DNA from: Pecten maximus
Lineage: Eukaryota
Assembly (NCBI RefSeq): GCF_902652985.1
Contig: NC_047016.1
Coordinates: 31,310,001-31,374,000 of the forward strand
DNA length: 64,000 bases
Direction of reading: 5' to 3'
A program made the translations under genes and the position numbers. The notes below the pieces were generated by a model, which saw only the letters and a program-made list of their open reading frames with translations, was not told the DNA's origin and did not search any database. Positions within the stretch are counted from its first letter, which is position 1. Every line of letters starts with the position of its first letter. Shown here in pieces: positions 18,151 through 64,000 of this stretch.

Positions 18151-19759
18151 AATCTAAAACCCTTTCTGTCCTTTTCTATACCTTTAACCTTTACCAATTA
18201 ACACAAGTGTACAATATAACCATCAAAACGTAATAACAGTTGTATATTTTTGACCCCAGGAAAACGCATTCAGAGTGATATATTTTAACCCATTTCTCTC
18301 ATCTTACAGCTATGTGATAAATAACAGCGTTCAGTATTCCTCGATGTTGATTGAATAGACAAAATCTATCCCGTTGTCACTTTATGGGAGTCGCATAACC
18401 TAGAAAGTCTGGCGGGTAATGGCACGATGGATGAAAAGACGCTTTCCCTTCCGGCACTCATGATTTTATTGTCTTTGTATTTTTTTAAGTGGCGTCATGT
18501 AAATATTTCCTTTCGTTCGTACCTAGCCATGGTATCATCGGATCTGCTGAGTTCAAGTCACAATTGTGTTTACAAATTGATTGTGTCTTTTCCATTGTTG
18601 ATCTATTGCCAGTATAACAGTTATAGTTAGTCTGTTAAAATCCTTTGTTTTGACCTAATTTCTTATGCTTTTGCATTTACGATAGTAAAAGGCCTTGTCA
18701 TATAGATATTGTTATACTTTAGGAGATTACAGATTTACAGTAGTAAACACATAAAGGCTGCTGTGAATTTATTACATTTTTAATCGGAATACACGAAATG
18801 GTTAATGAAGAAGATCTTTTTCAATCGACGAATGTTCTAAATTGTGAGATAAGAATGACTTTCATCGCTGTTGAACATACCTCCTAGACATTTTCAATGG
18901 TTTATAAAGAAAGCTTTAAATTTGTGGGCTTGGCATCGTGAATGAGTACTAGCGGTAACAGAGTGGATCGCATTCTAAAAATAAAACTGTAGATTACAGA
19001 GTTATAAGTCTAAGTGATATTTATGTATGTGTCTGTTTTTCCAACGATCCACTGCAGGCTTGGCTGTACATTGTGTTGATGGACGAGTTTTAAATAGATG
19101 TGTTACCGATACTGACGTCATCATTCGTTCGCCTGATTTCGAATCTGAAATGGACCTATATAAACGCAGATTTCTGTAAGAGAGGATTATGTATTTCATT
19201 CTGGAATTTAACAAAATGCATTTACATTATCATGAATGATCACTTTATTACATCGAACTTATCCCAGGCAACTTTTCTTTCGTGGATTCAAGATATTCTT
19301 GGGTACGTCACCTAAAGAAATGGTGGACTTAGATTTCAACTTACTTCGTTATACAGTGTATCTATTTTCGTTAGGCTTTATGCACTGCGTTTGTGAACAG
19401 CATATTATATAAATTAAATATTAGATACAGTACTAGATACAGTATATGTAAAGTTAACTGAAAATAAAACTGTATCATTTATCAGTTTTGTCCATCTCGG
19501 ACTCTTGAGTGATGTGTTTATTTTATGTTTACGTTCATCTTGACGATTGATTAATGGTATCTGGGTGATTTTTACTAATAGGATGTTTTGTCGATATTCC
19601 ATGTTATCCGATATATAGATAAAGATGCATTCGTTATATAGATATTACAATTATTCTAAACAGTACATTTTTCATCATTACAGATACGAAGATGCCCTAG
19701 TTTTGTGTGAATGGCCTTAAGGCCTTCACCATGTTAACGCTGGCCTGAGGTCGGAGCGG

Positions 19760-22700
19760 ATGAGCCATAGTCACGGAGAATCAAGCCATTCCCGCGCTTC
19801 CGAATCGCCCGCACTTAACCCAGCCTCAAGCGACCGTAGCCTTACGCCAACTGATGATGCCAACAATCCAGTCAGTGAAGTCCTGTTTTGCAGCTCAGCC
19901 GCTATCTTCAATCCTAAAATTGAAAAAGCTTACCGCAATGAAACCAATCGACCACCACGACTTGCCACACCTCTCAGGCTCGTAACGCTTCCAGAGGACC
20001 AGCCGATACCCCAGAGCAAACCCGGTCGTGCGCCAAACACTTCCAACCCACGCAACCCCGTCGAAGGAAGCAACATGGGTAACATATTTGGAAGCAAGAA
20101 AAAGAAAAAGAAAAATGCACAGAAGGAAGACGATGAGGAGATATGGAAAAAGATGGGCGCGAACGATTCTTCTACTTCGCTGCCACCTGATGCAAAGAAG
20201 AAAAACAAGAAAAAGAAAGCTAAGAAATCGAAACGTGTGGAATCCCCCTCGCCGCCAAGAGGAGGGGATGGGTCACTCAAAGGGAAGGACCCCAAACGAT
20301 ACGCAATGTACGAGCCGCAGTCAAATTCGAAGGATCCTCAGACACATGCCGTCAGGTCACGCACTCTCCCGGCACGAGTCGATCCTTCGGAATTTCGTAA
20401 AAGTATCGGCGATCCAATGGACTTCCGAATGGCAGACGATGTGTCTCCTGCTGGAAGTCCAGGTTATGCGACGCCGGAAACAGCAACACCGCCCGTTCAA
20501 AAGTCACCTGGTCCTATCTACAAGAAAATCAACGTCAACCGTGAGAGAAAGACTAAAGACAGAAGCTTACCTGATACGCCGAAAATGAATAACAAAGACA
20601 CTGCTTCACAACCAGTTGATTCAAAAACCGGTAAAGTAGCAGAAATGAAGAAGCAGCATTCGGTCCCAACTCCAGGAACTGGAAGTCCGAGACCGAGGGG
20701 ATATATCTTGCCATCCCCACCGAGTCGGCCCAAATTTTATGCGACAGAACCTGGATCAGCGAGTCCAAAATTATTAAGAGTCCAACCACAGAAACCGGTG
20801 ACGTTGAACTCTAGTAGTGATGACTCCAGTTACTCCAACAAGGACAAATTGGCGGCTCTACGTGCAAATTCCAAACCAAGAAACATGCCTCGTTCAGATC
20901 AAGCAAAGAATAACAATAGAAAAGATGTGCATGGCATTCATGTAGGAGACCCCGGCCAGGAAAGTTCGCAGGTCGACCAACAAAACCGATTAGAAGCCTT
21001 TGATATTGCTATGCAAAAAGAAAATGAGGAAAATGAACGGAACTTGAAACGAGAAGAACGCCGTAAAAAGGCGGCAGTTGCAGACATGCAAGCTGCACCA
21101 AACCTCGAGGAATGTCAAAAGATTAAAGAAACTGTAGTCGAGGCAGTTGAATCTCGTATCACCGAATCAGAGAAACACGAAGTTACATCCGGGCCTAAAG
21201 TAGCTATTCTTTCGACTATTCCTCCTCCCGAGAAAGCTGTTTTGTCACATGTACCTCCTCCTAGTCCATCGGCCATGGACGCGTTATGTGAGGAAAATGA
21301 AGATGATGATTTGGATGATGAAAATGCCGATGACGATGATGACAGTGACAATCATGTGACGTATAGGAGAAGCAAAGAGGTCGAGGAATTCGGTGGGATT
21401 GTTTGTCAACGTCTGTCTCAGTTACTAGAGAGTCAGGATGACGGTACACTTAAGTTACAGTTCATCGAGTCAAATGACCCTTCTTCGTCATTATCGCCAG
21501 CTAGTCCATGCATGGTTATGAGTGGCGGAAGTGACCTAGACAGGGAACGAATGGAAGATGCAGGTCTCGGTTATTCAAGTATGTCTCCGCCGATGGAGAC
21601 AGAAAATGTGTATAAAGAGAAGTCGATTCCAAAAAAACTATTGTGTGTGGAGATGACGAAACCGTCGACTTTCTCTCAAAGACTAGAACGATCCTCCATA
21701 TCCACCAGATCAACTCAGGGAAGCAATTCAGCATCGGACTTGGATGGGAGGGTCAATTATCGTGATTCGAAATCGCCCAGATCTCGGGATTTTATAAGAG
21801 ATCGTCGTGAAAATGAAAGTGAAATCAGTTCGTCGGAAGAGGAGAGTTCCTATACCAGTGATTCCGAGTACTCGTCTCGTGGCTATGATGAGAAGCGTGA
21901 CCACGTGACTAGTTACAGAGAAAATGAATATTCAATACCTTGGGATTTACATCGATTTCCGCGTAGCGCGAGCTATACATCCGACGGTCTCGATATGTCG
22001 GACAGTGATCTATTCTATGAACATGAAGTTAGAAATAAACCCGATCATGCTCAAATTGCGCATGTCCAGAGAAATGCTAGACATGGCCGTAAAATGAGAG
22101 AGCAAGATATATCGGACTGCGATGACATGTCCGACGGTAGGTGGGTCGAGTATCCGCAAGAAAAATATCAAAAGGATTCACGTTTAAACAAAAGTCGGCA
22201 GGTTTCCGTAGAGGAGCTCCGAATAGAGCCAATTAGTGTTAAAAGACAACTATTTGCGCTGCCTACGCACTTATATGAAAATGACGCCAAGAACGAAATA
22301 GAGGAGCCTGAAATAAAACCGTCCTTCATATCTAGTGAAAATACATCTTCTCATATTCCAAAAAGAGGTTCAGAAATGATGAGTGACGTTATAGATGCAT
22401 ATACATCAGAGGAAATGGCTGTTACGAAACGAAAAGCACCAATTGTGCCTCCGAAACGTCAATCAACGTTAAGTGAGGAGATATTAATAGAACAGCCGTC
22501 AAATCCGTCCGCACTCGATAAATCGTTAAAGAAAATATTTAGCCAGGATGACGAAATAGAGGAAAGATACCCAGAGTTAGCTCCCCTGCATTCCCTTATA
22601 TTGGGTGTTGAAGAGGGAGGCACTCCGTCTGTGGAGCCGTTTTTTGAATTTCGACCTGGTCAGCTCCCGACGTTCACCCGCGTACCGTTAGGATCCCGAA

Positions 22701-23389
22701 GATCTCTCGCTTATTCGGAATCCGATCTAGACATGTCTGAACAGCGAGATGACATCAGCTCCGACAACATGGACGCGGATGACGAAGACGACGAAGAGGG
22801 AGGGATAGTGATGCTGGATAGGAGAGATTTGGATGACGAGGAGGTTGTGTACGGAAGGACGTACGGAGATGTAAACAGGCGCGTGGAGGTCAAAGTAAGT
22901 CAGAAAGTGTTGAACACTGCATTCCGGGAGAGTGACGATAACGATAGCGTTTTCCTCGACGAGGACGACTCTGATGTCGGCCGACGTAAACCGAAGAAAG
23001 CATGGGCGCCGCATAAATTCGACATTCCTCCTCCCCCTCCCGAGTTTGATTTACCACCCCCATCCCCACAACCTCCACCTCCTCCCTCTCCCTCACCTTC
23101 ACCACAGCACGTGGCCCAACCTCCCAACCTGGATCTGGCCTCCACATACTACGCTATCGGACCACCCGCTCAGGTGGGAGGCGTGGCGTTTGATGATGCT
23201 AGAAAACAAATGGAAGACATACATATGCAGTTACAGACTCTCAGAGATCAAATGGTCCACATGGAGAAGGACACCCCGGAGTCACCAAGGTCAAAAAAGT
23301 CACAAAGGTCAGCGGGGTCAGCGGGGTCAGCGGGGTCAGTGGGGTCGCATCGTGAAGCGAATACAGCAAGAACAACGTTGACAGACTAA
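19760..23389 (+). CDS. Uncharacterised 1209-aa Ser/Pro/Asp/Glu/Lys-rich, largely disordered protein (putative membrane-anchored scaffold), single coding exon; alternative start Met106 at 20075
   Basis: 3.6-kb uninterrupted non-repetitive ORF, more GC-rich than its flanks. Acceptor TTTTTCATCATTACAG ends at 19683 and donor-like AAG|GTACC lies at 23390/23391. No globular domain is recognised. Confidence 0.9.
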   Translation: MSHSHGESSHSRASESPALNPASSDRSLTPTDDANNPVSEVLFCSSAAIFNPKIEKAYRNETNRPPRLATPLRLVTLPEDQPIPQSKPGRAPNTSNPRNPVEGSNMGNIFGSKKKKKKNAQKEDDEEIWKKMGANDSSTSLPPDAKKKNKKKKAKKSKRVESPSPPRGGDGSLKGKDPKRYAMYEPQSNSKDPQTHAVRSRTLPARVDPSEFRKSIGDPMDFRMADDVSPAGSPGYATPETATPPVQKSPGPIYKKINVNRERKTKDRSLPDTPKMNNKDTASQPVDSKTGKVAEMKKQHSVPTPGTGSPRPRGYILPSPPSRPKFYATEPGSASPKLLRVQPQKPVTLNSSSDDSSYSNKDKLAALRANSKPRNMPRSDQAKNNNRKDVHGIHVGDPGQESSQVDQQNRLEAFDIAMQKENEENERNLKREERRKKAAVADMQAAPNLEECQKIKETVVEAVESRITESEKHEVTSGPKVAILSTIPPPEKAVLSHVPPPSPSAMDALCEENEDDDLDDENADDDDDSDNHVTYRRSKEVEEFGGIVCQRLSQLLESQDDGTLKLQFIESNDPSSSLSPASPCMVMSGGSDLDRERMEDAGLGYSSMSPPMETENVYKEKSIPKKLLCVEMTKPSTFSQRLERSSISTRSTQGSNSASDLDGRVNYRDSKSPRSRDFIRDRRENESEISSSEEESSYTSDSEYSSRGYDEKRDHVTSYRENEYSIPWDLHRFPRSASYTSDGLDMSDSDLFYEHEVRNKPDHAQIAHVQRNARHGRKMREQDISDCDDMSDGRWVEYPQEKYQKDSRLNKSRQVSVEELRIEPISVKRQLFALPTHLYENDAKNEIEEPEIKPSFISSENTSSHIPKRGSEMMSDVIDAYTSEEMAVTKRKAPIVPPKRQSTLSEEILIEQPSNPSALDKSLKKIFSQDDEIEERYPELAPLHSLILGVEEGGTPSVEPFFEFRPGQLPTFTRVPLGSRRSLAYSESDLDMSEQRDDISSDNMDADDEDDEEGGIVMLDRRDLDDEEVVYGRTYGDVNRRVEVKVSQKVLNTAFRESDDNDSVFLDEDDSDVGRRKPKKAWAPHKFDIPPPPPEFDLPPPSPQPPPPPSPSPSPQHVAQPPNLDLASTYYAIGPPAQVGGVAFDDARKQMEDIHMQLQTLRDQMVHMEKDTPESPRSKKSQRSAGSAGSAGSVGSHREANTARTTLTD

Positions 23390-31320: not shown

Positions 31321-32619
31321 GTCTTAATTGGCACCGTAAATGTCAGCAACTCAGGTTGTAGAACTCGAATAACCCACCGTGGTACAATATAAACTCAATT
31401 GTTCGTGTGCAAAAGTCTTCGGTTTTTCACTTTACACCAGATAAAAAAAAATTATAATTCTTTTATTTTTTGAAGATTTTCACATATTAAAACAATAGAT
31501 ATGGATGACAAAAATAAAAAAAACAAGACAAAGAAAAAACATACATACACACACTCTTACACATACATGTTGTGATGATCATCATCATCATATCATCTTC
31601 ATCATGTATCATATAAGTAAACATGCTACACCAGATAAAATGGTTTCCTTCATAGTTTTGGTGTTATTTCATATGTTTGTATTCGTTTCTCGGCAATTAA
31701 AACTATGCAGCCGTAATATAAATGAATAAATCTTATTTTACAACCGTTGTGAAACAAGTTTTAACAATCAGTCTTGTTTGTTTGGAAACCCAGGAAGAGA
31801 CGATCTAAAAACAGTATGTGGCACAAGGAGTATAGTATCGAATACCATACTTTTTTTTTATTGTTCCTCGACAGTTGAAGTCATTTTTTTCCAGTGTTTT
31901 CTAGTGTGTGATGTTTAATGGATAGTATTTCGGAACAATGAATTCGCCAAGGAATAGACACCACTGGGTACCTATCCTGGTATGGACGTGATGACCTTCA
32001 CCCCTGCTCCTATTGATGTTGGTGTTAGCCTTTTGCCTCTCTCGGCAGACTGATACAATACCACCACGAGACCAGTGCTCCAATCACCCGTCTCGTATTA
32101 TACACAACCACCCACATAATAGTAGTCCATCGCCTATCAATTATTGTAAAGATGATTGAATTAATAATGACTTAGAAAGTATAACAAGTTGGCAGAGTGC
32201 GATCAAACAACTCAGCGCCACTTCAGTCGCGCCATCACGCGAGCTTCAAAGCTATGCGTGAAGGTGTCACCCCGACAAAGGGCGTCCAGCTACGCTTTAC
32301 GTAGAGATAAATACCTCCCTAGTGATCCGGACGGACGCGTATGGACCTTTCCAATGTTCAGGCGTGCACTATTTACCACCTCACTTAATGACGCGTTACA
32401 GTACGCGTTCGGATAGCCAGTGTTGAGCCAGATATGTGTTTACCAAAATGACCTCCGCCATTCTTTCAATAAAAGATTAATTACTGTCAGATAATTGATC
32501 GAATCTATGGAACATAAACTTTATTATTTTGACTATGATTAAGGTATCAATCTGGTAAAATCCCACCAGTTTTCCTTCCAATTTGGTGATTAAGACTTTA
32601 TCATTTAAGGACGGCCTCT

Positions 32620-35600
32620 ATTGCGCAGTAGATACATGGTATATACATATATGTAGAGGCTGATGGTAGATATTTAAATGTAGACGGTAGAGGCCAATAG
32701 TAAAGACAAATAGTAGGGATGGATGGTATAGGTAGATAGTAAATTTTGGATATGGTAGAGGTGGTAGGTGAAGCAATATATTAGAGGTAGATGGTAGATT
32801 GTAAATGGTTGATAAGTATATGTAGGGGTAGATGGTAGATGTAGGGGTAGATGGTAGATGTAGAGGTATATGTAGGGGTAGATGTAGGGGTAGATGGTAG
32901 ATGTAGAGGTAGATGGTAGATGTTGGGGTATATGTAGGGGTAGATGTAGGGGTAGATGGTAGATGTAGAGGTAGATGGTAGATGTAGAGGTAGATGGTAG
33001 ATGTAAATGGTTGATAAGTATATGTAGGGGTAGATGGTAGATGTAGGGGTAGATGTAGGGGTAGATGGTAGATGTAGGGGTAAATGGTAGATGTTGGGGT
33101 AGATGTAGGGGTATATGGTAGATGTAGAGGTATATGTAGGGGTAGATGTAGGGGTAGATGGTAGATGTAGGGGTAGATAGTAGATGTAGTGGTAGATAGT
33201 AGATGTAGAGGTAGATGGTAGATGGTAGATGTAGGGGTAGATGTAGGGGTAGATGGTAGATGTAGGGGTAGATGTAGGGGTAGATGGTAGATGGTAGATG
33301 TAGGGGTAGATGGTAGATGGTAGATGTAGGGGTAGATGGTAGATGGTAGATGTAGGGGTAGATGTAGGGGTAGATGTAGGGGTAGATGGTAGATGGTAGA
33401 TGTAGGGGTAGATGGTAGATGGTAGATGTAGGGGTAGATGGTAGATGGTAGATGTAGATGTAGGGGTAGATGTAGGGGTAGATGGTAGATGGTAGATGTA
33501 GGGGTAGATATAGGGGTAGATGTAGATGGTAGATGTAGGGGTAGATGGTAGATGTAGATGGTAGATGTAGATGTAGATGTAGATGGTAGATGTAGGGGTA
33601 AATGGTACATGTAGGGGTAGATGGTAGATGGTAGATGTAGAGGTAGATGTAGGGGTATATGGTAGATGGTAGATGGTAGATGTAGAGGTATATGGTAGAT
33701 GTAGAGGTAGATGTAGGGGTATATGGTAGATGGTAGATGGTAGATGTAGAGGTATATGGTAGATGTAGAGGTAGATGTAGGGGTATATGGTAGATGTAGG
33801 GGTAGATGGTAGATGTAGGGGTATATGGTAGATGTAGTGGTAGATGGTAGATGTAGGGGTAGATGGTATATGTAGGGGTATATGGTAGATGTAGTGGTAG
33901 ATGGTAGATGTAGGGGTAGATGGTAGATGTAGGGTTATGGTGTGTATGGTTGGTTTGTGGGGTTTGGTATGTGGGTGTGGTGGTGTGGGGTTGAGGGTGA
34001 TGGTGATGTATATGGGTGTGTAGGGGTAGATGGTAGATGTAGGGGTTTAGGGTGATGTGGGGGTTTAATGGTATGGTAGGGGTAGTTTGGTTAGATGTAG
34101 GGGTGATTGGGGTTTTGGGTAGATGTGGGGTTGATGTTGTGGGGGTAAATGGTCTGTGTGGTGGGGTGGGTAGATGGTGCTGTCGGGGTTTGTGGGTCGG
34201 GTGGGGTGGGGTGGGGTGGGTGGGGTGATGGTGTGTGGGTGATGGTGTGTGGGGTTTGGTGGGGTGATGGTGTGTAGGGGTGTGTGGGGTGTGGTGGTGG
34301 GGTGGCGTGGTCTACGGTTTGATGTTGGTTCGTTGGGGTAGTTGTTGTGTGTGGGGTTGGTCTGTGGGTAGATAGGTAGGGTGTGTGGGAGTGTGATGTC
34401 GTTTGTTGATGATGGATGTGGGCTCTGGTAGTGTGGGGTATTGGGTAATAGGGGCTTGAAGTAGCAATGTAGTCGAATGGGTAGTGTATGAGGGTGATTG
34501 TTGTTATGTGGTGTGTGGTGTGGGTATGTGGTTGGGATGTGGGGTGTGTTGTTTGTGTGTGTGGATGTTGGTGTTCGTTAGGTGAGTAATTCGGAATGTA
34601 GGGGTCTGGTACGTTAAAGTAGCGTAGAGGTTCGTTCCGATCTGTCGCATGTCAGTAGTCAATAGGTTGAATGGTCGCTCTACGGTCATGTAGGGTCGCT
34701 GACCAGTGAAAAGGTGGTTTATGGTCGTTAGGAAACGGACATTCTGATACACTTCGATGCGTTCCTTAGATTGGGTCTCATGCGCTGAATGGATAATGCT
34801 AGAGTTCCAATGACTGTAGACTGTTAATTGGTAAGTAGCAACTCGGTGTGAACTGGAATAACCCGGTAGATTAACGTAGTGTCGTGTGATAGGGTCTTCG
34901 TTTGTTCCTGACACCGTAGAAGAGATTATGTTTAGGTTTGAAGTTCGTAGTTAAGACATAATTGACAAATACAGATCAGACGATGAGACTGTAGATGCGG
35001 GCACTTACGTGACTGTGTGTGTGTATGATCTGCATTCGTGTCATGCTGTGTTCATGTACGTCCCGATGGTAATGGTGTCTCATGTTTGGGGTTATTATAT
35101 GTGATTTCGGAATGTAGACTGTGCGGCCGTGATCTAATTAGGGGTCATGTATTTAGCTTGTTGTAATTGTTAAGTCCTACTTTCGTTGACAGGTAGGACG
35201 CACTCAGTCGTGGCACATGGTAGTTGAGTGATGTACTGTGTTATTTTGAGGCGTTGGAGTATTTTTCAGTGTTCCAGTGTGATGTGTAACTTGCGATTTA
35301 ACATGTCCCTAAGGAATCCGAAGACACCCTGAGACCTTCCTGGTCCTGACTGACACTCACCGGCACCTCTTGTCGCGTATCCTTTTGCGCTTCGCAGTGA
35401 GCAATACCATCTCGAGACTCTGGAGTCCGCTCGGGGATATAACCACAAATGTACTCCATCGCATCAATATTGCTAAATGGATAATACGTAGATTGTCAAG
35501 GAGTGACATAGGAGACAAAATTCAGGCGAACGTTCATCGCCAATAGGTCGCTCTTAAGGTTCACGGGAAAGCGTAATTCGCCTCTACGCAGGCTTGTCGC

Positions 35601-38600
35601 GTGGGGGTGGTAGTGTGGGTAATGTTTAGGCGTGTAATTACCTATTAATGAGTAAGTAGCGTTTGGTAGAGGAGAGATTGTAGATTGTCAGTATGAGCAC
35701 GCATTATAGAGTAGTTGTAGATAATTGATGAATTAGGTAGAATTAGTGACTAGATTAAGGTTATGGTAAACCGTTCTTCCAGAGGGAAGATGTAATTTAA
35801 GAGGGCTATGGATGATGTACATATATGGGTATGGTATGTAGAGTTAAGTAGACGTAGGGGTCAATGGTAGACTGTAGGGATTAAGGTAGATGTAGTTGGA
35901 TGGTAGATGTAGGGGGAAATTGGTTAGAGTAGGGTAGATGTAGATGTTGATAGATTATAGTAGGGGTAGATGGTAGATGTAGATGGTAGATGGTAGATGG
36001 TAGATGTAGGGGTATATGGTAGATGTAGAGGTAGATGTAGGGGTATGTGTGGGTATGTAATGGGGTGTGGTGAGGTAGCTGGTGATGTAGAGGTCGATGG
36101 TAGATGGGGGTAGCTGGTGTGTGTGATGGTGTGTAGGGGTGATGGTTGTAGGGGTGTTAGGTGGTAGGTGTAGGGTAGTGTGGGTCGCTGATGTAGGGGT
36201 ACTGGTGATAGGTAGTGGTAGATGTAGGGGTAATGGGATGTCGGGTAGATGTAGAGTAGGGAGTGGTAGAGTAGGGGTAGATGGGTCGTGTGGGTATATG
36301 TGTAGATGTAGAGGTAGATGGGTGTAGTGTAGGGTAGATGTGGGTAGGTAGATGTAGGGGTAGTTAGGGGGTGTGGGTAGATTGTAGATGTAGGGTGATG
36401 TGGGTAGCGGGTCGGGTAGATGTAGGTAGGGGTAGATGGTCGTGGTGTAGGGTGTGTGTAGGGGTGTTAGGGTAGGGGTCGGGTAGTGGATGTCGGGGTA
36501 GATGGTAGATGTAGGGTAGGTGTGGTGTGTCGTGGTCGATGTCGGGTGTGTGGGGGTGGTATGTAGAGGTGTGGGTGTAGGGGTCTGGTGATGGTGGTAG
36601 GGTTATGTAGGGGTGCTGGTCGATGTGGGTCTGGTGATGTAGGGGTGTCTAGGGTGGTCGGGTCTAGTGGGGTAGTGGTGATGGGTCGATGGTCGAGGTG
36701 AGGTGTGTAGTGGTCGTGGTCGTGTCGTGTGTGGTTGTGGGGTGGTGCTGTCGGGTCAGTGGTTGTGGGTATGGTGTGTAGGGTCGTGTAGTGTGGGTTA
36801 TGGTGATGGGGTCTGGTAGCTGGGGTGCTGTTGTGTGGGGTCATGGTGTGTAGGGGTTCTGGTAGACTGTGGGTAGTGGTGTTGGGTGATGGTAATGTAG
36901 GGGTAGTGTCATGGTCGTGGTAGGTTGTGGGGTGTGTGTCGGTTGGGTCGATGGTGTGTGGGGGAGGTTGTGTTGGGTAGATGGGGTTGTCGTTGTGGGG
37001 TCTGTGGTGATGTAGGTGTGTTGTGTGGTAGGGTGGGCTTAGGGGTAGTGTGGGGGTCCTGGTCAGCTGTGGGGTCGCTGGTCGTGTCGGGTCGGCTGGT
37101 CTGGTGTGTTGGTCTTGGGGGTGAGTGGTCGTGGGTCTGGTCGGTGGGGTGCTGGGTCGGGGCTGGGTACGTGTATGGTGTGGTGCTGTGGGGTGCTTAT
37201 TGTCGGGGTCTGGTGCGTGTGGTGCTGTGCTGGGGTTCATGTGCTGTGGGGTGTGGTGTGTGGGTGATGGTCGATGTAGGGGTGTGGTGTCGGGGTCTTG
37301 GTGTTGGGGTAGCTGGTGTGGGGTACTGGTCGTGTCGGGTAGATGTGTGGTTTGTGGGGTAGGTGTTGGGGTAGTGTCGGGGGGTGATGGTCTCTGTAGG
37401 GGTCTGGTAGTGGGGGTGGGGGTTTGGTCGATGTGGGTAGATGGTGTGGTCGCTGGTCGATGTCGGGTGGTTGTGTCGGGGTAGACTGGTCGAGTCTAGG
37501 TCGGGTAGTGTCGGGTCGTGTAGTGGGTGTGTGTAGGGGTCGTGGGGTGTGGGGTGTGTGGTAGTGTAGGGGTGCTGGTAGTGTCGGGGGTAGCTGGTGG
37601 TGGGGTAGTTGGGGTGTGTGGGTGCTGGTGTGTAGATGGTGTGTGGGTCTTGGTGATGTCGGGTCTATGGTGTGTGGGGTCTGGTAGTGTAGGGGTTATG
37701 TGGGGTCGTGGTAGATGGTAGGTTCAGGGTCGCTGGTCGAGTAGGGGTGAGGGTAGATGGTGTGGGGTGTGGTGGTGTCGGGGTGTGGTGTGTTCGGGTA
37801 TGTAGGGGTAGTGTAGGGTGTGGGGTACGGTGCTAGTGGTCGTGTACGGGGTCTCTGGTCGATGTAGGGGTCTCGTGGTGATGTGGGGTGGTGTGTGCTG
37901 TCGGGTACTGGGGGTAGGGTAGGGTAGATGGTAGGGTCGGTATGGGTGTGTGTGTGCTGGTGTGTGGGGTCGTGGTCGAGTCGGGGTGTCTTGGGTGCGT
38001 GGGTAGATGGTACAGTAGGGGTCATGGTGCTGTCGGGTCCTGGTCGTGTGGGTAGGGTGATTCGGGTATATGGTTGGGGGTGTTGGTGATTGCGTGGGTG
38101 TGGTGACTGTAGGGCGTGGTGTGGTCTGTGGGGTAGGTCGGGGTATATGGGGTGTGGGTGTTAGGGTGGGGTTGTAGTCGTGGGTAGTGTGGTTGTTTGG
38201 TTTGTTTTTTGTTTACGTCCTATTTCCAGCTATTCCTTTAAGGACGGCCTCCCGTGCGTGCGACATGCGCGTGTGGTGATGTGTATGTGTATTTTGGGAG
38301 GCTGCGGTATGTTCGTGTTAAGTCTCCTTGTGATAGGCCGGAACTTTTGCCGATTTATAGTGCTACCTCACTGAAGCATACTGCCGAAGACACCCAGCAG
38401 CACACCCCACCCGGTCACATTATACTGACAACGGGCAAACCAGTCGTCGCACTCCAATATGCTGAGCGCTAAGCAGGAGTAGCAACTACCATTTTTAAAG
38501 ACTCTGGTATGTCTCGGCTAGGGGACAGAACCCAAAGCCTTCCTCACAGCGGCGAACGCTCAACTAAAGGCCAAACGTGAGGCATTGTCAAGGGAGACAT

Positions 38601-53455: not shown

Positions 53456-53664
53456 GGTTTATTTTTGTTTATGTTGTTTAACGTCCTATTGACAGCCAGT
53501 GCCATTTAAGGACATGCCAGGTTTTGGAGATGGAGGAAAGCCGGAGTACCCGGAGAAAAACACAGGCCTACGGTCAGTACCTTGCAACAGCCCAACGTGG
53601 GTTTCGAACTGGAGAGTTAGTGATAAAGTGTCGGGACACCTTAACCACTCGACCACCGTGGCCC
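53456..53664 (-). mobile_element. Near full-length tRNA-derived V-domain SINE
   Basis: Minus strand shows GGGCCACGGTGGTCGAGTGGTTAAGG (box A), GTTCGAAAC (box B), V-like core TTTTTCTCCGGGTACTCCGGCTTTCCTCCA, and tail GTCCTTAAATGGCACTGGCTGTCAATAGGACGTTAAACAAC with an A-rich end. Confidence 0.88.
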
Positions 53665-54306
53665 AATGTTGGGATGGTAGGCCCTAAAAAGAAATCAATC
53701 AGAAAGCAAATATCCGTGAAATCACCTCCTTTTTAGTTTTACTCAATGTTAAGTTCTGGTGCAGTAACAATGAAACAAAAACATCAAGTAGGTATGGTTT
53801 TCTGCCAATTTAATCAGTGTATAGTTGTAGTATTATATACTAGCACACATACTACTTCATGTTTGAACAGCAATCATCAAACGTTAGAAAAAGATCCATT
53901 TTTACCTAGATAGACTGGAGAAAACCGACATACGTATGATACCGCAATGCATCTTAGAACTGATAGAACGTGGTCAACAAATGGAAACCTTTCGAAACAG
54001 AACCAGGAGAATAAGATCAGGCGTTCCGGGTGGGTAAGCATCTTATATTACATTCAACTTTGTTTCACTCGATTTTGAGTTCAGGTCTTCATTTTCTAGG
54101 TCAATATGTCTGCCGTTTTTTTCAAACAAAATGACCATTCTAGAATATACAATTTCGGAGTTTGTCGTTCTAAGGGGTAATGGTCAGATAACATTTCCTC
54201 AGAAGTAATATAAATATTTCATTATTTATTGATTGTTCATATCGGAAACTATTCGATACCCATATTCCGTTCTAGGAGTTTATGAATATAGACACCCTGT
54301 TGGATA

Positions 54307-60990: not shown

Positions 60991-61436
60991 GCAGGACCAT
61001 TGGCGAGAGACGGTCTTCACATCTGAATTTTGAGCGACTACGCATTGTCACTGAAGCGGACCTATTCGTTAGTACCTCGTGTGTGTTCCCTTTACGTTAT
61101 AGTGCGTAGATACAGTGGAATTTAACCCGTGTCGCTTTCATGTTTTGATAACAAACTTGTACGCAGATAATATTTAAGTCTAATTTAAGAGTTTAATTTC
61201 GGTCGATAACTTATACACGGAGGTGTATTATCCTTTGAAGGACAGGGATTTGACAATATACCTCTGTTCAGGTCCATCAAAAACAACTGATCTGGATTGG
61301 AAATTTTAAAGTATATCTGACAGGTGTAACTAAATATCATTGTTTGCCCAGGGTTTGGCAAACAAATCTTACGTTTAAAGTAGTTGTAGCAGTACAAGTT
61401 CCGGATTATATACCTGGATAAAACTCTTACAACAAA

Positions 61437-61850
61437 ATGGCTTACGAGTACAGACATGGTGAACAGATAGTTTTTCTCGTGTTAGTATTCACGTGTTTTG
61501 CGGCGGCAGGTAATGGAAAATTTCTGGAAAGATTTTGTAAAATTAGCTGCAATCGTGGAAGAGGGGGGAATTTGTGCGGATGCAATGGCTTCCACTTTGC
61601 TGGAAAGAGAACATCATATTCAGACATTTCAGAAAATCCATCATCAAATTCCCAGAAGAATTATTTAAATAATGACTTTAGCGATATTGAAAACAATGAT
61701 GCTTTTGATGCGGAAAACCTCGAAGACATGCTGTACAAACAGAAACAGATTTTACAAGAATCAGACCAACTTCCGGTGGAACCTAAACGTCTGGAGAATG
61801 TTCGAGTTTTCATTCGCTGGCTTCTTCATAATTTAAACGAAGCGAGGTAA
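61437..61850 (+). CDS. Neuropeptide precursor, HFAamide-like (4-Cys amidated peptide)
   Basis: Strong start context AAAATGG and a hydrophobic signal peptide (IVFLVLVFTCFAAAGNG). This is followed by KFLERFCKISCNRGRGGNLCGCNGFHFA-G-KR (amidation plus dibasic site), an acidic spacer and a second KR. The family name is recalled from lophotrochozoan neuropeptide surveys. Confidence 0.88.
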   Translation: MAYEYRHGEQIVFLVLVFTCFAAAGNGKFLERFCKISCNRGRGGNLCGCNGFHFAGKRTSYSDISENPSSNSQKNYLNNDFSDIENNDAFDAENLEDMLYKQKQILQESDQLPVEPKRLENVRVFIRWLLHNLNEAR

Positions 61851-64000
61851 GAACATCTTTAAATAAGTATATATACAAATAATATCGATTGTCAATTGAA
61901 AGTAACTTTGTGCTATCAATTTAACATGTTCACTTAAAATGAACTCCGTCTTTTTAGCATGGTCCATTAATGACAAGTAGACATTTTATTTCCAACGTGA
62001 ATTTAAACGATATTAATGTGAAAAGAAGTCAGTATTGCTATTTCTTTCACGCTTGAGAAATGTGAACGATGAATCTTGTGATGATTTTCATTTCAAACGC
62101 GTGTTAATTTAAGTAGAGCTACCTAACTGGTAATACTATTTCAATATACACTTCGATCAGGATTTGTTTTTACAATTACCATTTTTTCTGTAATATGAAC
62201 ATAAATCAAATTTGATGTGTGTATGCAGTTAAGTTAATGAGAGTATTGATAGTGTCTCTGTATAGTAGTTATCTATTGATACAAATCCATATGTTTACTA
62301 ACTAGTAGAGTGCTAACCGACAATACCGCCGAGACATGTATGTGAATGATTGACATGTCCCATGCAATGGGGACATAACATAATAACAACGATATCCCTA
62401 TGTTTGAGTAGAAACCACGTTAGCAAGAGTAACACTATCTACTGTATTAGAACGTGGTAATTTCATTTCGAAAATGTAATGAATAAGTTTTGAATCTGTT
62501 TTTCAAATTATATCAAAACATGCGAGAAAAAGTGTATAAATCAATTGTGTGGCATTTATTTATATACCAGTAGGGTTCGTGAAAATCAAGTTAATTTTCC
62601 TTTATCGTCACATGATTATGCATTTACTTTTCATTTCATACTAGTCATCACTAGTCCAATTAATAATGTAGGGTATAATGTAATGAAATTAATTAATTGT
62701 CTAAGTATCATACAAAAGACATATAAGATATAAACATATACAGTGTTATAAGTCTTCATTACGCAGCGTTAGATACAGTAGAGTCAAATCTTCGTCCTTC
62801 TAGGTCTCATCTGTAATACTAGGGTTTAAAGGAGTCTAAACCCGATTACGTTACTCTTGGTTTATATTGATTATCTGGTAATTAAGTACGGTATTAATTA
62901 ACTTATCTGTATTTAATGTCACGTTTTTGAAGCAAGAAAACTCCGTTGGAATTGCTGGATGGTATTCTATCTTACTTGACTTTTTTCCCCAGCATTTGCC
63001 GTTACCGTGCATTCTGAGTTTAATTCTGTTTGAATTGTCCGATTTCAAATTTTCATGCTAATTCACTTCACTTTGTATCTTATAACATATCCTTAACCCA
63101 TTTCTCATTTCCCTTTTGATAAGTTTGATACCTGGTATCAGTGATATAAAGAAAAAAATAGCTGTATGATGCAGTTTCATGTTACGGCATAACACTATTC
63201 ATTACTATTTAAAGGTGCTAGTATTCCGTATGTTATTTGTACAATTCTTTTAGACTTCCTCCAGACTGTAGTGTTGAACATTCAAGTATACCTATATATG
63301 AGTTGTTGATATATGTAGTTCTCACCTGTATCTATCCCATGACAATATCCCAGTAATTATATTATATACAGTATATGTACCTGATCGGACACTCAGAAGT
63401 GATCCTCACCCATCCATTCTGAAGAGTGCTGGTTCCATAGAAGTGCAACACCGCCAGCGCACTGTTGGAATAGAGATTTAATCAGTCGAAAACACTAGCT
63501 AATTCCAATATATGTTTTTTATTGTCATTGTTAATGTCGCATATTTATATAAATATAAAATCAAAGTCAACTTTTAAGCTGGTGTATTACCAATCATATA
63601 CGAAAACTTACCTTTATGTCTAGGTATTACAATGTACCTGGTTAGTCAAACAGTTAACTAAATGGCATGTCTATATAGAGAACAATTACCTATATCATAT
63701 CATGACTGAGACATTCTATATTAGGACTTACCTGGCTGGTTATAAAGGGACCTACGGTTGTCGCTAAGGAAACTTTGGTTTGTAATGCAATCGTCTACAG
63801 TTCATCCTTCTGCTTTGATAGATTCCACCGTATCAGTTGCCGTATTCGGTTTATATATAGTATGATAGAGCGAGAGAAACTGACATCAAAAAGAACACAG
63901 GAATGAACGTAAAACGGGATATAGACATACGTATATTTGACGTATGTAGTGTACTACTGAAAAGCTTAATAAAATACCTATAAAATCAGCATACAGTTCC

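What the first reader, a model, noticed from the sequence alone, without database searches (positions are those of the whole stretch)
61437..61850. HFAamide-type neuropeptide precursor with a CxxxC/CxC scaffold
Seen: signal peptide, then a predicted 28-aa mature peptide KFLERFCKISCNRGRGGNLCGCNGFHFA-NH2 (61518-61601) with C-x3-C-x8-C-x-C spacing and net charge about +4. Established: G-KR gives convertase cleavage plus amidation, and CxxxC paired to CxC is the cystine-stabilised helix motif also used by defensins and scorpion toxins. Recall: HFAamide is a lophotrochozoan family known mainly from sequence surveys, and I know of no assigned receptor or function. Inference: a little-studied signalling peptide, possibly also membrane-active.
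Basis: partly seen in the sequence, partly recalled or inferred. Interest (0 to 1): 0.7.

Follow-up and report, generated by a model that had tools for sequence, protein, structure and literature searches.

The report
Scallop HFAamide neuropeptide precursor gene
This is the first coding exon of a real, spliced scallop gene for HFAamide, a small signalling peptide already known from oysters, snails and worms, which is predicted to be secreted, amidated and held by two disulfide bonds and likely acts through a receptor that has not yet been identified.

Summary
In detail: signal-like start, C-x3-C-x8-C-x-C core, HFA-GKR and charge +4 are all there. A 13,891-bp phase-2 intron leads to a second exon, giving the 158-aa Pecten maximus protein LOC117321778. 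It is a member of the published spiralian HFAamide family. 78 of 84 relatives keep the exact spacing, the oyster peptide was seen amidated by mass spectrometry, and Platynereis larvae express it in the head. A 2026 table lists its function as unknown and reports a cone-snail venom mimic. The defensin-like, membrane-active reading is weak: four cysteines rather than six, no predicted strand, family charge -1 to +5, one genomic copy, and a peptide identical in four scallop-type sequences. Best reading: an orphan neuropeptide, likely a GPCR ligand. New here: the gene structure and an apparently shared phase-2 intron (14 of 17 loci). New member of a known kind; modest interest.

The parts
61143..61436 (+). 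5' leader in the same exon as the start codon; transcript contigs begin between 61143 and 61255
   Evidence: table 8: contigs of X4, X6, X3 and X1 align from 61143, 61191, 61251 and 61255 with no unaligned lead; contigs cannot show the true start
61437..61508 (+). predicted signal peptide, residues 1-24 (cleavage after the Ala run inferred)
   Evidence: hydropathy; 16 of 24 positions identical in 4 scallop-type sequences
61509..61517 (+). residues 25-27, either the peptide's N-terminal extension or the end of the signal peptide
   Evidence: 1 of 3 positions invariant; P0005 has an acidic residue just before K28, which argues against signal cleavage there (rule recalled)
61518..61601 (+). HFAamide peptide core, 28 residues, C-x3-C-x8-C-x-C-x6
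   Evidence: 28 of 28 identical in P0003, P0004 and P0005; 13-20 of 28 in 9 more distant members, 8 of them with named sources
61602..61610 (+). Gly-Lys-Arg amidation and convertase site
   Evidence: GKR in 81 of 81 motif-bearing units (the pattern required G plus two basic residues); oyster peptide found amidated
61611..61784 (+). acidic spacer peptide, poorly conserved
   Evidence: 24 of 58 positions identical in 4 scallop-type sequences; the oyster spacer was detected by MS
61785..61846 (+). KR site and conserved amphipathic C-terminal helix up to the end of exon 1
   Evidence: 16 of 22 positions identical; F-[IVL]-x-W-L-[LM] in 10 of 87 proteins; pLDDT 92-95 over residues 121-140
61847..64000 (+). 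start of a 13,891-bp phase-2 intron (GT donor at 61847); exon 2 lies beyond the window at G000:C2:31385738, with 21 more codons and about 1.1 kb of 3' UTR
   Evidence: RNA contigs jump it and intron bins have zero depth

Best explanation
This is exon 1 of a spliced, single-copy scallop gene for the HFAamide precursor, which is predicted to be secreted and cut to a 28-31-residue amidated peptide, likely closed by two disulfides, that likely signals as a neuropeptide through a still unidentified receptor, most probably a GPCR. Shown here: the reading frame, the splice, the transcript, single copy and family membership. Shown in oyster only: cleavage at KR and amidation. Inferred: signal cleavage after Ala24; disulfides tying the CxxxC helix to the CxC after a glycine-rich turn (nested pairing is my guess, because the 8-residue loop is too short for a defensin hairpin); the His-Phe-x-amide tail as the receptor-activating end. 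A role in late larvae and juveniles (settlement, first feeding, growth) is a weaker inference of about 0.35.
For: Precursor layout and motif. Spliced mRNA-like contigs in 6 of the 6 runs laid (X1, X3, X4, X5, X6, X15), 2 of them on record as RNA. 78 of 84 profile hits carry the exact spacing although the pattern allowed loops of 4-14 and tails of 3-10. Four Cys, two Gly and the tail Phe in 81 of 81 units, His in 79 of 81. Peptide 100% identical across 4 scallop-type sequences against 24 of 58 in the spacer. One copy in the genome with three queries. Oyster amidated peptide and spacer found by MS (PMC8398477 supplement). Platynereis in situ signal in the head of 3-day larvae (PMC5747525); expression zero to 48 h, peak at 10-15 days (PMC3890597 supplement). 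Conus nerve-ring neuropeptide with a venom mimic in C. textile, a mollusc hunter, and two other species (PMC13542836). Atlas neighbours are all neuropeptide precursors, with no one family preferred.
Against: No receptor or activity was found in the papers searched, so the GPCR step is inference. Oyster expression is low in visceral ganglia and mostly larval, with some in mantle. A survey of Yesso scallop ganglia gave no hit for HFA or GFHF in its text or 6 supplements (figures not seen). The tissues of the scallop runs are coded and unknown. The oyster MS mass fits a reduced peptide with one alkylated Cys, so it does not show the disulfides. The peptide model is of modest confidence (pLDDT 67.7).
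Confidence: 0.78

Rival explanations
1. The peptide is mainly a cationic, membrane-active or antimicrobial peptide with a cut-down defensin-like fold.
For: Charge +4 and an amphipathic helix (moment 0.66 over residues 28-38). UniRef names the Capitella member 'invertebrate defensins family profile domain-containing protein'. Mantle and larval expression in oyster.
Against: Family charge runs from -1 to +5, median +2, in 81 units. Four Cys; the 8 of 80 with one more Cys have it upstream, near the signal cleavage site. No strand in either model. Beta-defensin and myticin Pfam hits are 1 of 70 members each at E 0.034. Single copy and complete conservation among scallops are unlike fast-evolving, multi-copy defence peptides (general knowledge).
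Confidence: 0.08
2. It is a secreted signalling peptide, but it acts on a peptide-gated or voltage-gated ion channel or another non-GPCR receptor.
For: The disulfide-tied helix resembles channel-binding toxin scaffolds (recalled). Peptide-gated channels exist in Platynereis and molluscs (search listing). Recruited into Conus venom.
Against: A single long peptide directly after the signal peptide with an aromatic amidated tail is the usual layout of class A GPCR ligands (general knowledge). The Atlas neighbours are such precursors.
Confidence: 0.1
3. HFAamide is a divergent member of the bombesin / endothelin / CCHamide signalling clade.
For: His-Phe-x-amide tail like neuromedin B (recalled); two-disulfide helix like endothelin in reverse order (recalled). 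Atlas rows 3, 8 and 10 are CCHamide and bombesin clusters at 0.88-0.90, which is lead level only.
Against: Bombesin-type genes have a phase-1 intron inside the peptide and a phase-0 C-terminal intron (PMC12002301). This gene has none in the peptide and a phase-2 intron, and the core is uninterrupted in 17 of 17 related loci. Endothelins are not amidated, and molluscan receptors of the clade are assigned to EP/CCHamide (PMC12969411). The SEC11-like gene lies on C17, not beside this gene on C2 (the vertebrate linkage is recalled).
Confidence: 0.06

Closest known systems
HFAamide precursors of Crassostrea gigas, Aplysia californica, Platynereis dumerilii and Capitella teleta (PMC8398477 supplement; PMC3890597) and of nemerteans, a brachiopod and phoronids (PMC8557429 supplement)
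   Same: Signal peptide followed directly by one C-x3-C-x8-C-x-C peptide with a G-x-G-G loop and HFA-GKR. The oyster-type P0012 shares 17 of 22 core residues and Capitella P0076 13 of 22. A W-L-L helix near the C-terminus is shared with oysters.
   Different: Only species-level sequence. The scallop peptide is among the more basic members and may carry three extra N-terminal residues. Some phoronid members have loops of 7 or 10 residues.
Scallop orthologues LOC110447962 (Mizuhopecten yessoensis) and the Argopecten irradians protein; own record LOC117321778
   Same: 83-84% identical over exon 1, peptide identical, same 158-aa length.
   Different: All are annotated 'uncharacterized'; none is named HFAamide by its source.
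Conus HFAamide doppelganger toxins (PMC13542836)
   Same: Derived from the same neuropeptide family; function listed as unknown.
   Different: Expressed in the venom gland with a conotoxin 5' UTR; sequences not seen because the supplement could not be read.
Cystine-stabilised alpha-beta defensins and scorpion toxins
   Same: CxxxC on a predicted helix followed by CxC; cationic.
   Different: Four Cys rather than six, an 8-residue loop, no predicted sheet, an amidated aromatic tail; no PDB match by sequence or fold.

Membership tests
HFAamide neuropeptide precursors | N-terminal signal peptide directly before a single peptide | tested here: met
   hydrophobic core at residues 11-24; exact cleavage site not predicted, no SignalP available
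HFAamide neuropeptide precursors | four Cys spaced C-x3-C-x8-C-x-C with a G-x-G-G loop | tested here: met
   matches the published alignments
HFAamide neuropeptide precursors | C-terminal His-Phe-Ala followed by Gly-Lys-Arg | tested here: met
   HFA in 69 of 81 units
HFAamide neuropeptide precursors | gene is transcribed and spliced | tested here: met
HFAamide neuropeptide precursors | amidated mature peptide present in tissue | not testable with these tools
   shown for oyster, not for scallop
HFAamide neuropeptide precursors | neural expression | not testable with these tools
   run tissues are coded; Platynereis and Conus data from papers
CS-alpha-beta defensins / scorpion toxins | six Cys in three disulfides | tested here: not met
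   four Cys in the mature peptide; the defining feature is recalled
CS-alpha-beta defensins / scorpion toxins | helix packed on a two-stranded beta sheet | tested here: inconclusive
   no strand in either model, but pLDDT is only 67.7 and 72.6; no fold match
CS-alpha-beta defensins / scorpion toxins | match to a defensin or toxin profile | tested here: not met
   no significant Pfam hit in 70 members; a UniRef automatic defensin label on the Capitella member is the one contrary sign
Bombesin / GRP / neuromedin B precursors | phase-1 intron within the peptide and phase-0 intron in the C-terminal region | tested here: not met
   feature from PMC12002301; this gene has one phase-2 intron and none in the peptide
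Endothelins | CxC before CxxxC, free C-terminus | tested here: not met
   order is reversed here (endothelin order recalled) and an amidation site is present; endothelins lack amidation

The most novel reading that the evidence does not exclude
HFAamide is an ancient, reversed-endothelin-like two-disulfide ligand of an orphan spiralian receptor, possibly in the endothelin/bombesin/CCHamide clade, and its cystine core is an older module that also occurs, tandemly repeated and without the amidated tail, in an unrelated secreted protein (P0057). Finding its receptor would tie a supposedly spiralian-only peptide to a wider bilaterian system.
Probability: 0.08. Interest if true: 0.7.

Novelty: new member of a known kind. 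Interest (0 to 1): 0.3.

Why it matters
The family is conserved across molluscs, annelids, nemerteans, brachiopods and phoronids and has been turned into a cone-snail venom component, yet a 2026 table still lists its function as unknown. The scallop gene gives a defined peptide for receptor screens in a farmed species, where a role at settlement or first feeding would be of practical use. The finding itself is an annotation of a known family, not a new system.

Tried and rejected
Pfam on the ORF, the peptide, 14 hits and all 70 aligned members gave nothing significant. PDB sequence searches gave 0 matches at E up to 10 and fold searches gave 0; a 32-residue model is too small for these to count as evidence of a new fold. 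Two word-index searches found only 4 scallop-type proteins. SEC11 linkage as a bombesin clue was negative. P0057 found no relatives, so its organism and meaning stay open; a look at the insect peptide PaOGS36577 gave no sequence to compare. Flatworm 'XHFamide' could not be compared because the supplement was unreadable. The Platynereis large-scale receptor screen is not held, so whether HFAamide was tried in it is unknown. The genomic-ORF reading (137 aa ending at 61850) was rejected as an unspliced read-through. No complex was predicted because there is no candidate receptor. Search 'HFAa' returned mostly unrelated chemistry and microbiology (30 of 162 listed).

Full report
Observation. Residues 11-24 are hydrophobic, the peptide at 61518-61601 has C-x3-C-x8-C-x-C and side-chain charge +4, and GKR follows. 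The motif is found once in the window and never in 100 shuffles. The protein search returned a 100% match named uncharacterized LOC117321778 of Pecten maximus, 158 aa, plus three scallop-type relatives.

Gene structure. The extra 21 residues come from a second exon. The donor is AG|GT at 61846/61847, the acceptor lies at G000:C2:31385738, the intron is 13,891 bp and phase 2, and the spliced frame equals P0002. Of 24 listed runs, 20 from 6 studies hold the stretch and 4 are on record as RNA. I laid 6 of them. Loose ends at 61848 in X1 and X6 read into exon 2; loose ends at the acceptor in X3, X5 and X15 read back into exon 1; the same 1831-nt contig of X4 covers both exons; flanking intron bins have zero depth. 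The transcript is about 1.6-1.8 kb, with no upstream exon in these contigs. All 7 listed differences from the genome lie in the 5' leader, and one coding difference near the exon end shows in the loose ends of X3 and X5. Three queries found one copy in the genome; the only other match was E 1.75 to the spacer.

Family. A profile of the four scallop-type sequences found 84 proteins at E up to 0.001. 78 carry the full motif, all with loop 8 and tail 6; 3 are truncated fragments that keep the tail; 3 (P0013, P0036, P0057) lack it. In 81 units from 80 of 87 proteins (six without the motif and one truncated were dropped) the four Cys, two Gly and the tail Phe are invariant and His is 79 of 81. Of 30 hits looked up, the 7 with species names are molluscs (Haliotis, Patella, Potamilus, Saccostrea, Bulinus, Babylonia) and the annelid Capitella; the rest are unnamed. 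These hits are biased towards the scallop query. Published HFAamide precursors match feature for feature: PMC8398477 (passages and supplement passages), PMC3890597 (passages and part of the supplements), PMC8557429 (one passage, supplement parts 14-15). In oyster, both the amidated peptide and the following spacer were found by MS; the mass fits a reduced peptide with one alkylation, so disulfides are not shown.

Shared intron. All 17 related metagenome loci have an uninterrupted peptide core (the search favours such loci). In 14 of 17 the frame ends at a stop preceded by G, that is at a phase-2 GT donor-like site as in scallop, against 526 of 2473 (21%) of background stops. The loci are not independent, so the binomial value overstates this. 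L026 ends at the residues after which the annotated Haliotis protein P0018 continues, which supports a real donor. I did not see this intron described in the passages read.

How it likely works. After signal cleavage (Ala24 inferred; K28 possible), KR cleavage and Gly amidation release a 28-31-residue peptide. AlphaFold with 69 sequences gives a helix over CxxxC, a turn at the Gly loop and an unstructured tail, with no strand (pLDDT 67.7; full precursor 72.6). The invariant aromatic amidated tail, complete conservation among scallops (28 of 28 against 24 of 58 in the spacer) and single copy point to a receptor ligand. Platynereis expresses it in the head of 3-day larvae (PMC5747525, one passage), rising from zero at 48 h to a peak at 10-15 days and nearly off in mature females. 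Oyster expression is larval, low in ganglia, with some in mantle. PMC13542836 (passages and section 6 part 1; supplement unreadable) reports a venom mimic in C. furvus, C. ammiralis and C. textile and lists both functions as unknown; that suggests molluscan prey have a receptor worth targeting (inference).

Rivals. For a defence peptide speak charge +4, an amphipathic helix and UniRef's automatic defensin label on the Capitella member. Against it: family charge -1 to +5, four Cys, no strand, no significant Pfam or PDB match. Kinship with bombesin, endothelin or CCHamide was suggested by the tail (recalled) and by Atlas leads at 0.88-0.90. It fails the intron test taken from PMC12002301 (passages), and molluscan receptors of that clade are assigned to EP/CCHamide in PMC12969411 (passages).

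What is in print. Searches for 'HFAamide' (7 papers), 'HFA' with neuropeptide and Platynereis, scallop terms, 'HFAa', deorphanization terms and 'HFamide' showed no receptor or function in the listings and passages that I read. The library lacks most subscription papers, and the Platynereis receptor screen was not held. The Yesso scallop neuropeptide survey PMC5996578 gave no hit for HFA or GFHF in text or 6 supplements (figures unseen). PMC13311285 has no HFA. PMC10501145, PMC10570428, PMC10396302, PMC13551398 and bioRxiv 10.64898/2026.02.02.703354 were seen as passages only and add nothing decisive; the supplements of PMC13542836, PMC12604039 and PMC10396302 could not be read and may bear on the Conus sequences, P0057 and flatworm XHFamide. 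The scan's own notes held nothing on this family or place.

Verdict. New member of a known kind; interest 0.3.

Noticed in passing
P0057 (hit; unnamed ENA record, 243 aa): Predicted secreted protein with three modules C-x3-C-x2-G-x-GG-x-L-C-x-C and one looser one, like the HFAamide core but with no His-Phe-amide tail; hhalign probability 93% over 29 columns against the family. No relatives found; organism unknown. Its N-terminal region reminded me of myosuppressin pro-regions (recall, untested).
   Followed up: partly
P0010 and L031:72-659: HFAamide precursors with two tandem peptide copies, each with its own GKR.
   Followed up: no
P0015 (Potamilus), P0016, P0019-21, P0024-27, P0031; L024, L025: A subgroup with a propeptide and a dibasic site between signal peptide and HFAamide, unlike scallop.
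   Followed up: no
window 19721-23386 (+): 1222-codon open frame with no Pfam match at E up to 10.
   Followed up: partly
window 53500-53665: Short element covered by very many deep, short RNA contigs with varied flanks in all 4 runs laid; looks like a multi-copy transcribed repeat. A similar pattern is at L008:6150-6630.
   Followed up: no
window about 32000-44000: Long low-complexity tandem arrays with GC skew up to 0.8.
   Followed up: no
L010-L013 (-) and L015-L016 (+), 30-95 kb beyond the window end: Exons that resemble extended synaptotagmin and WDR60 in head-to-head order (recalled resemblance; single exons gave no supporting Pfam or PDB hit).
   Followed up: partly
L016:7040-9999 (-) and L018:9698-9997 (-): A reverse-transcriptase frame (PF00078, E 1.9e-11) of a likely retrotransposon, and an EF-hand exon upstream of the window.
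   Followed up: no
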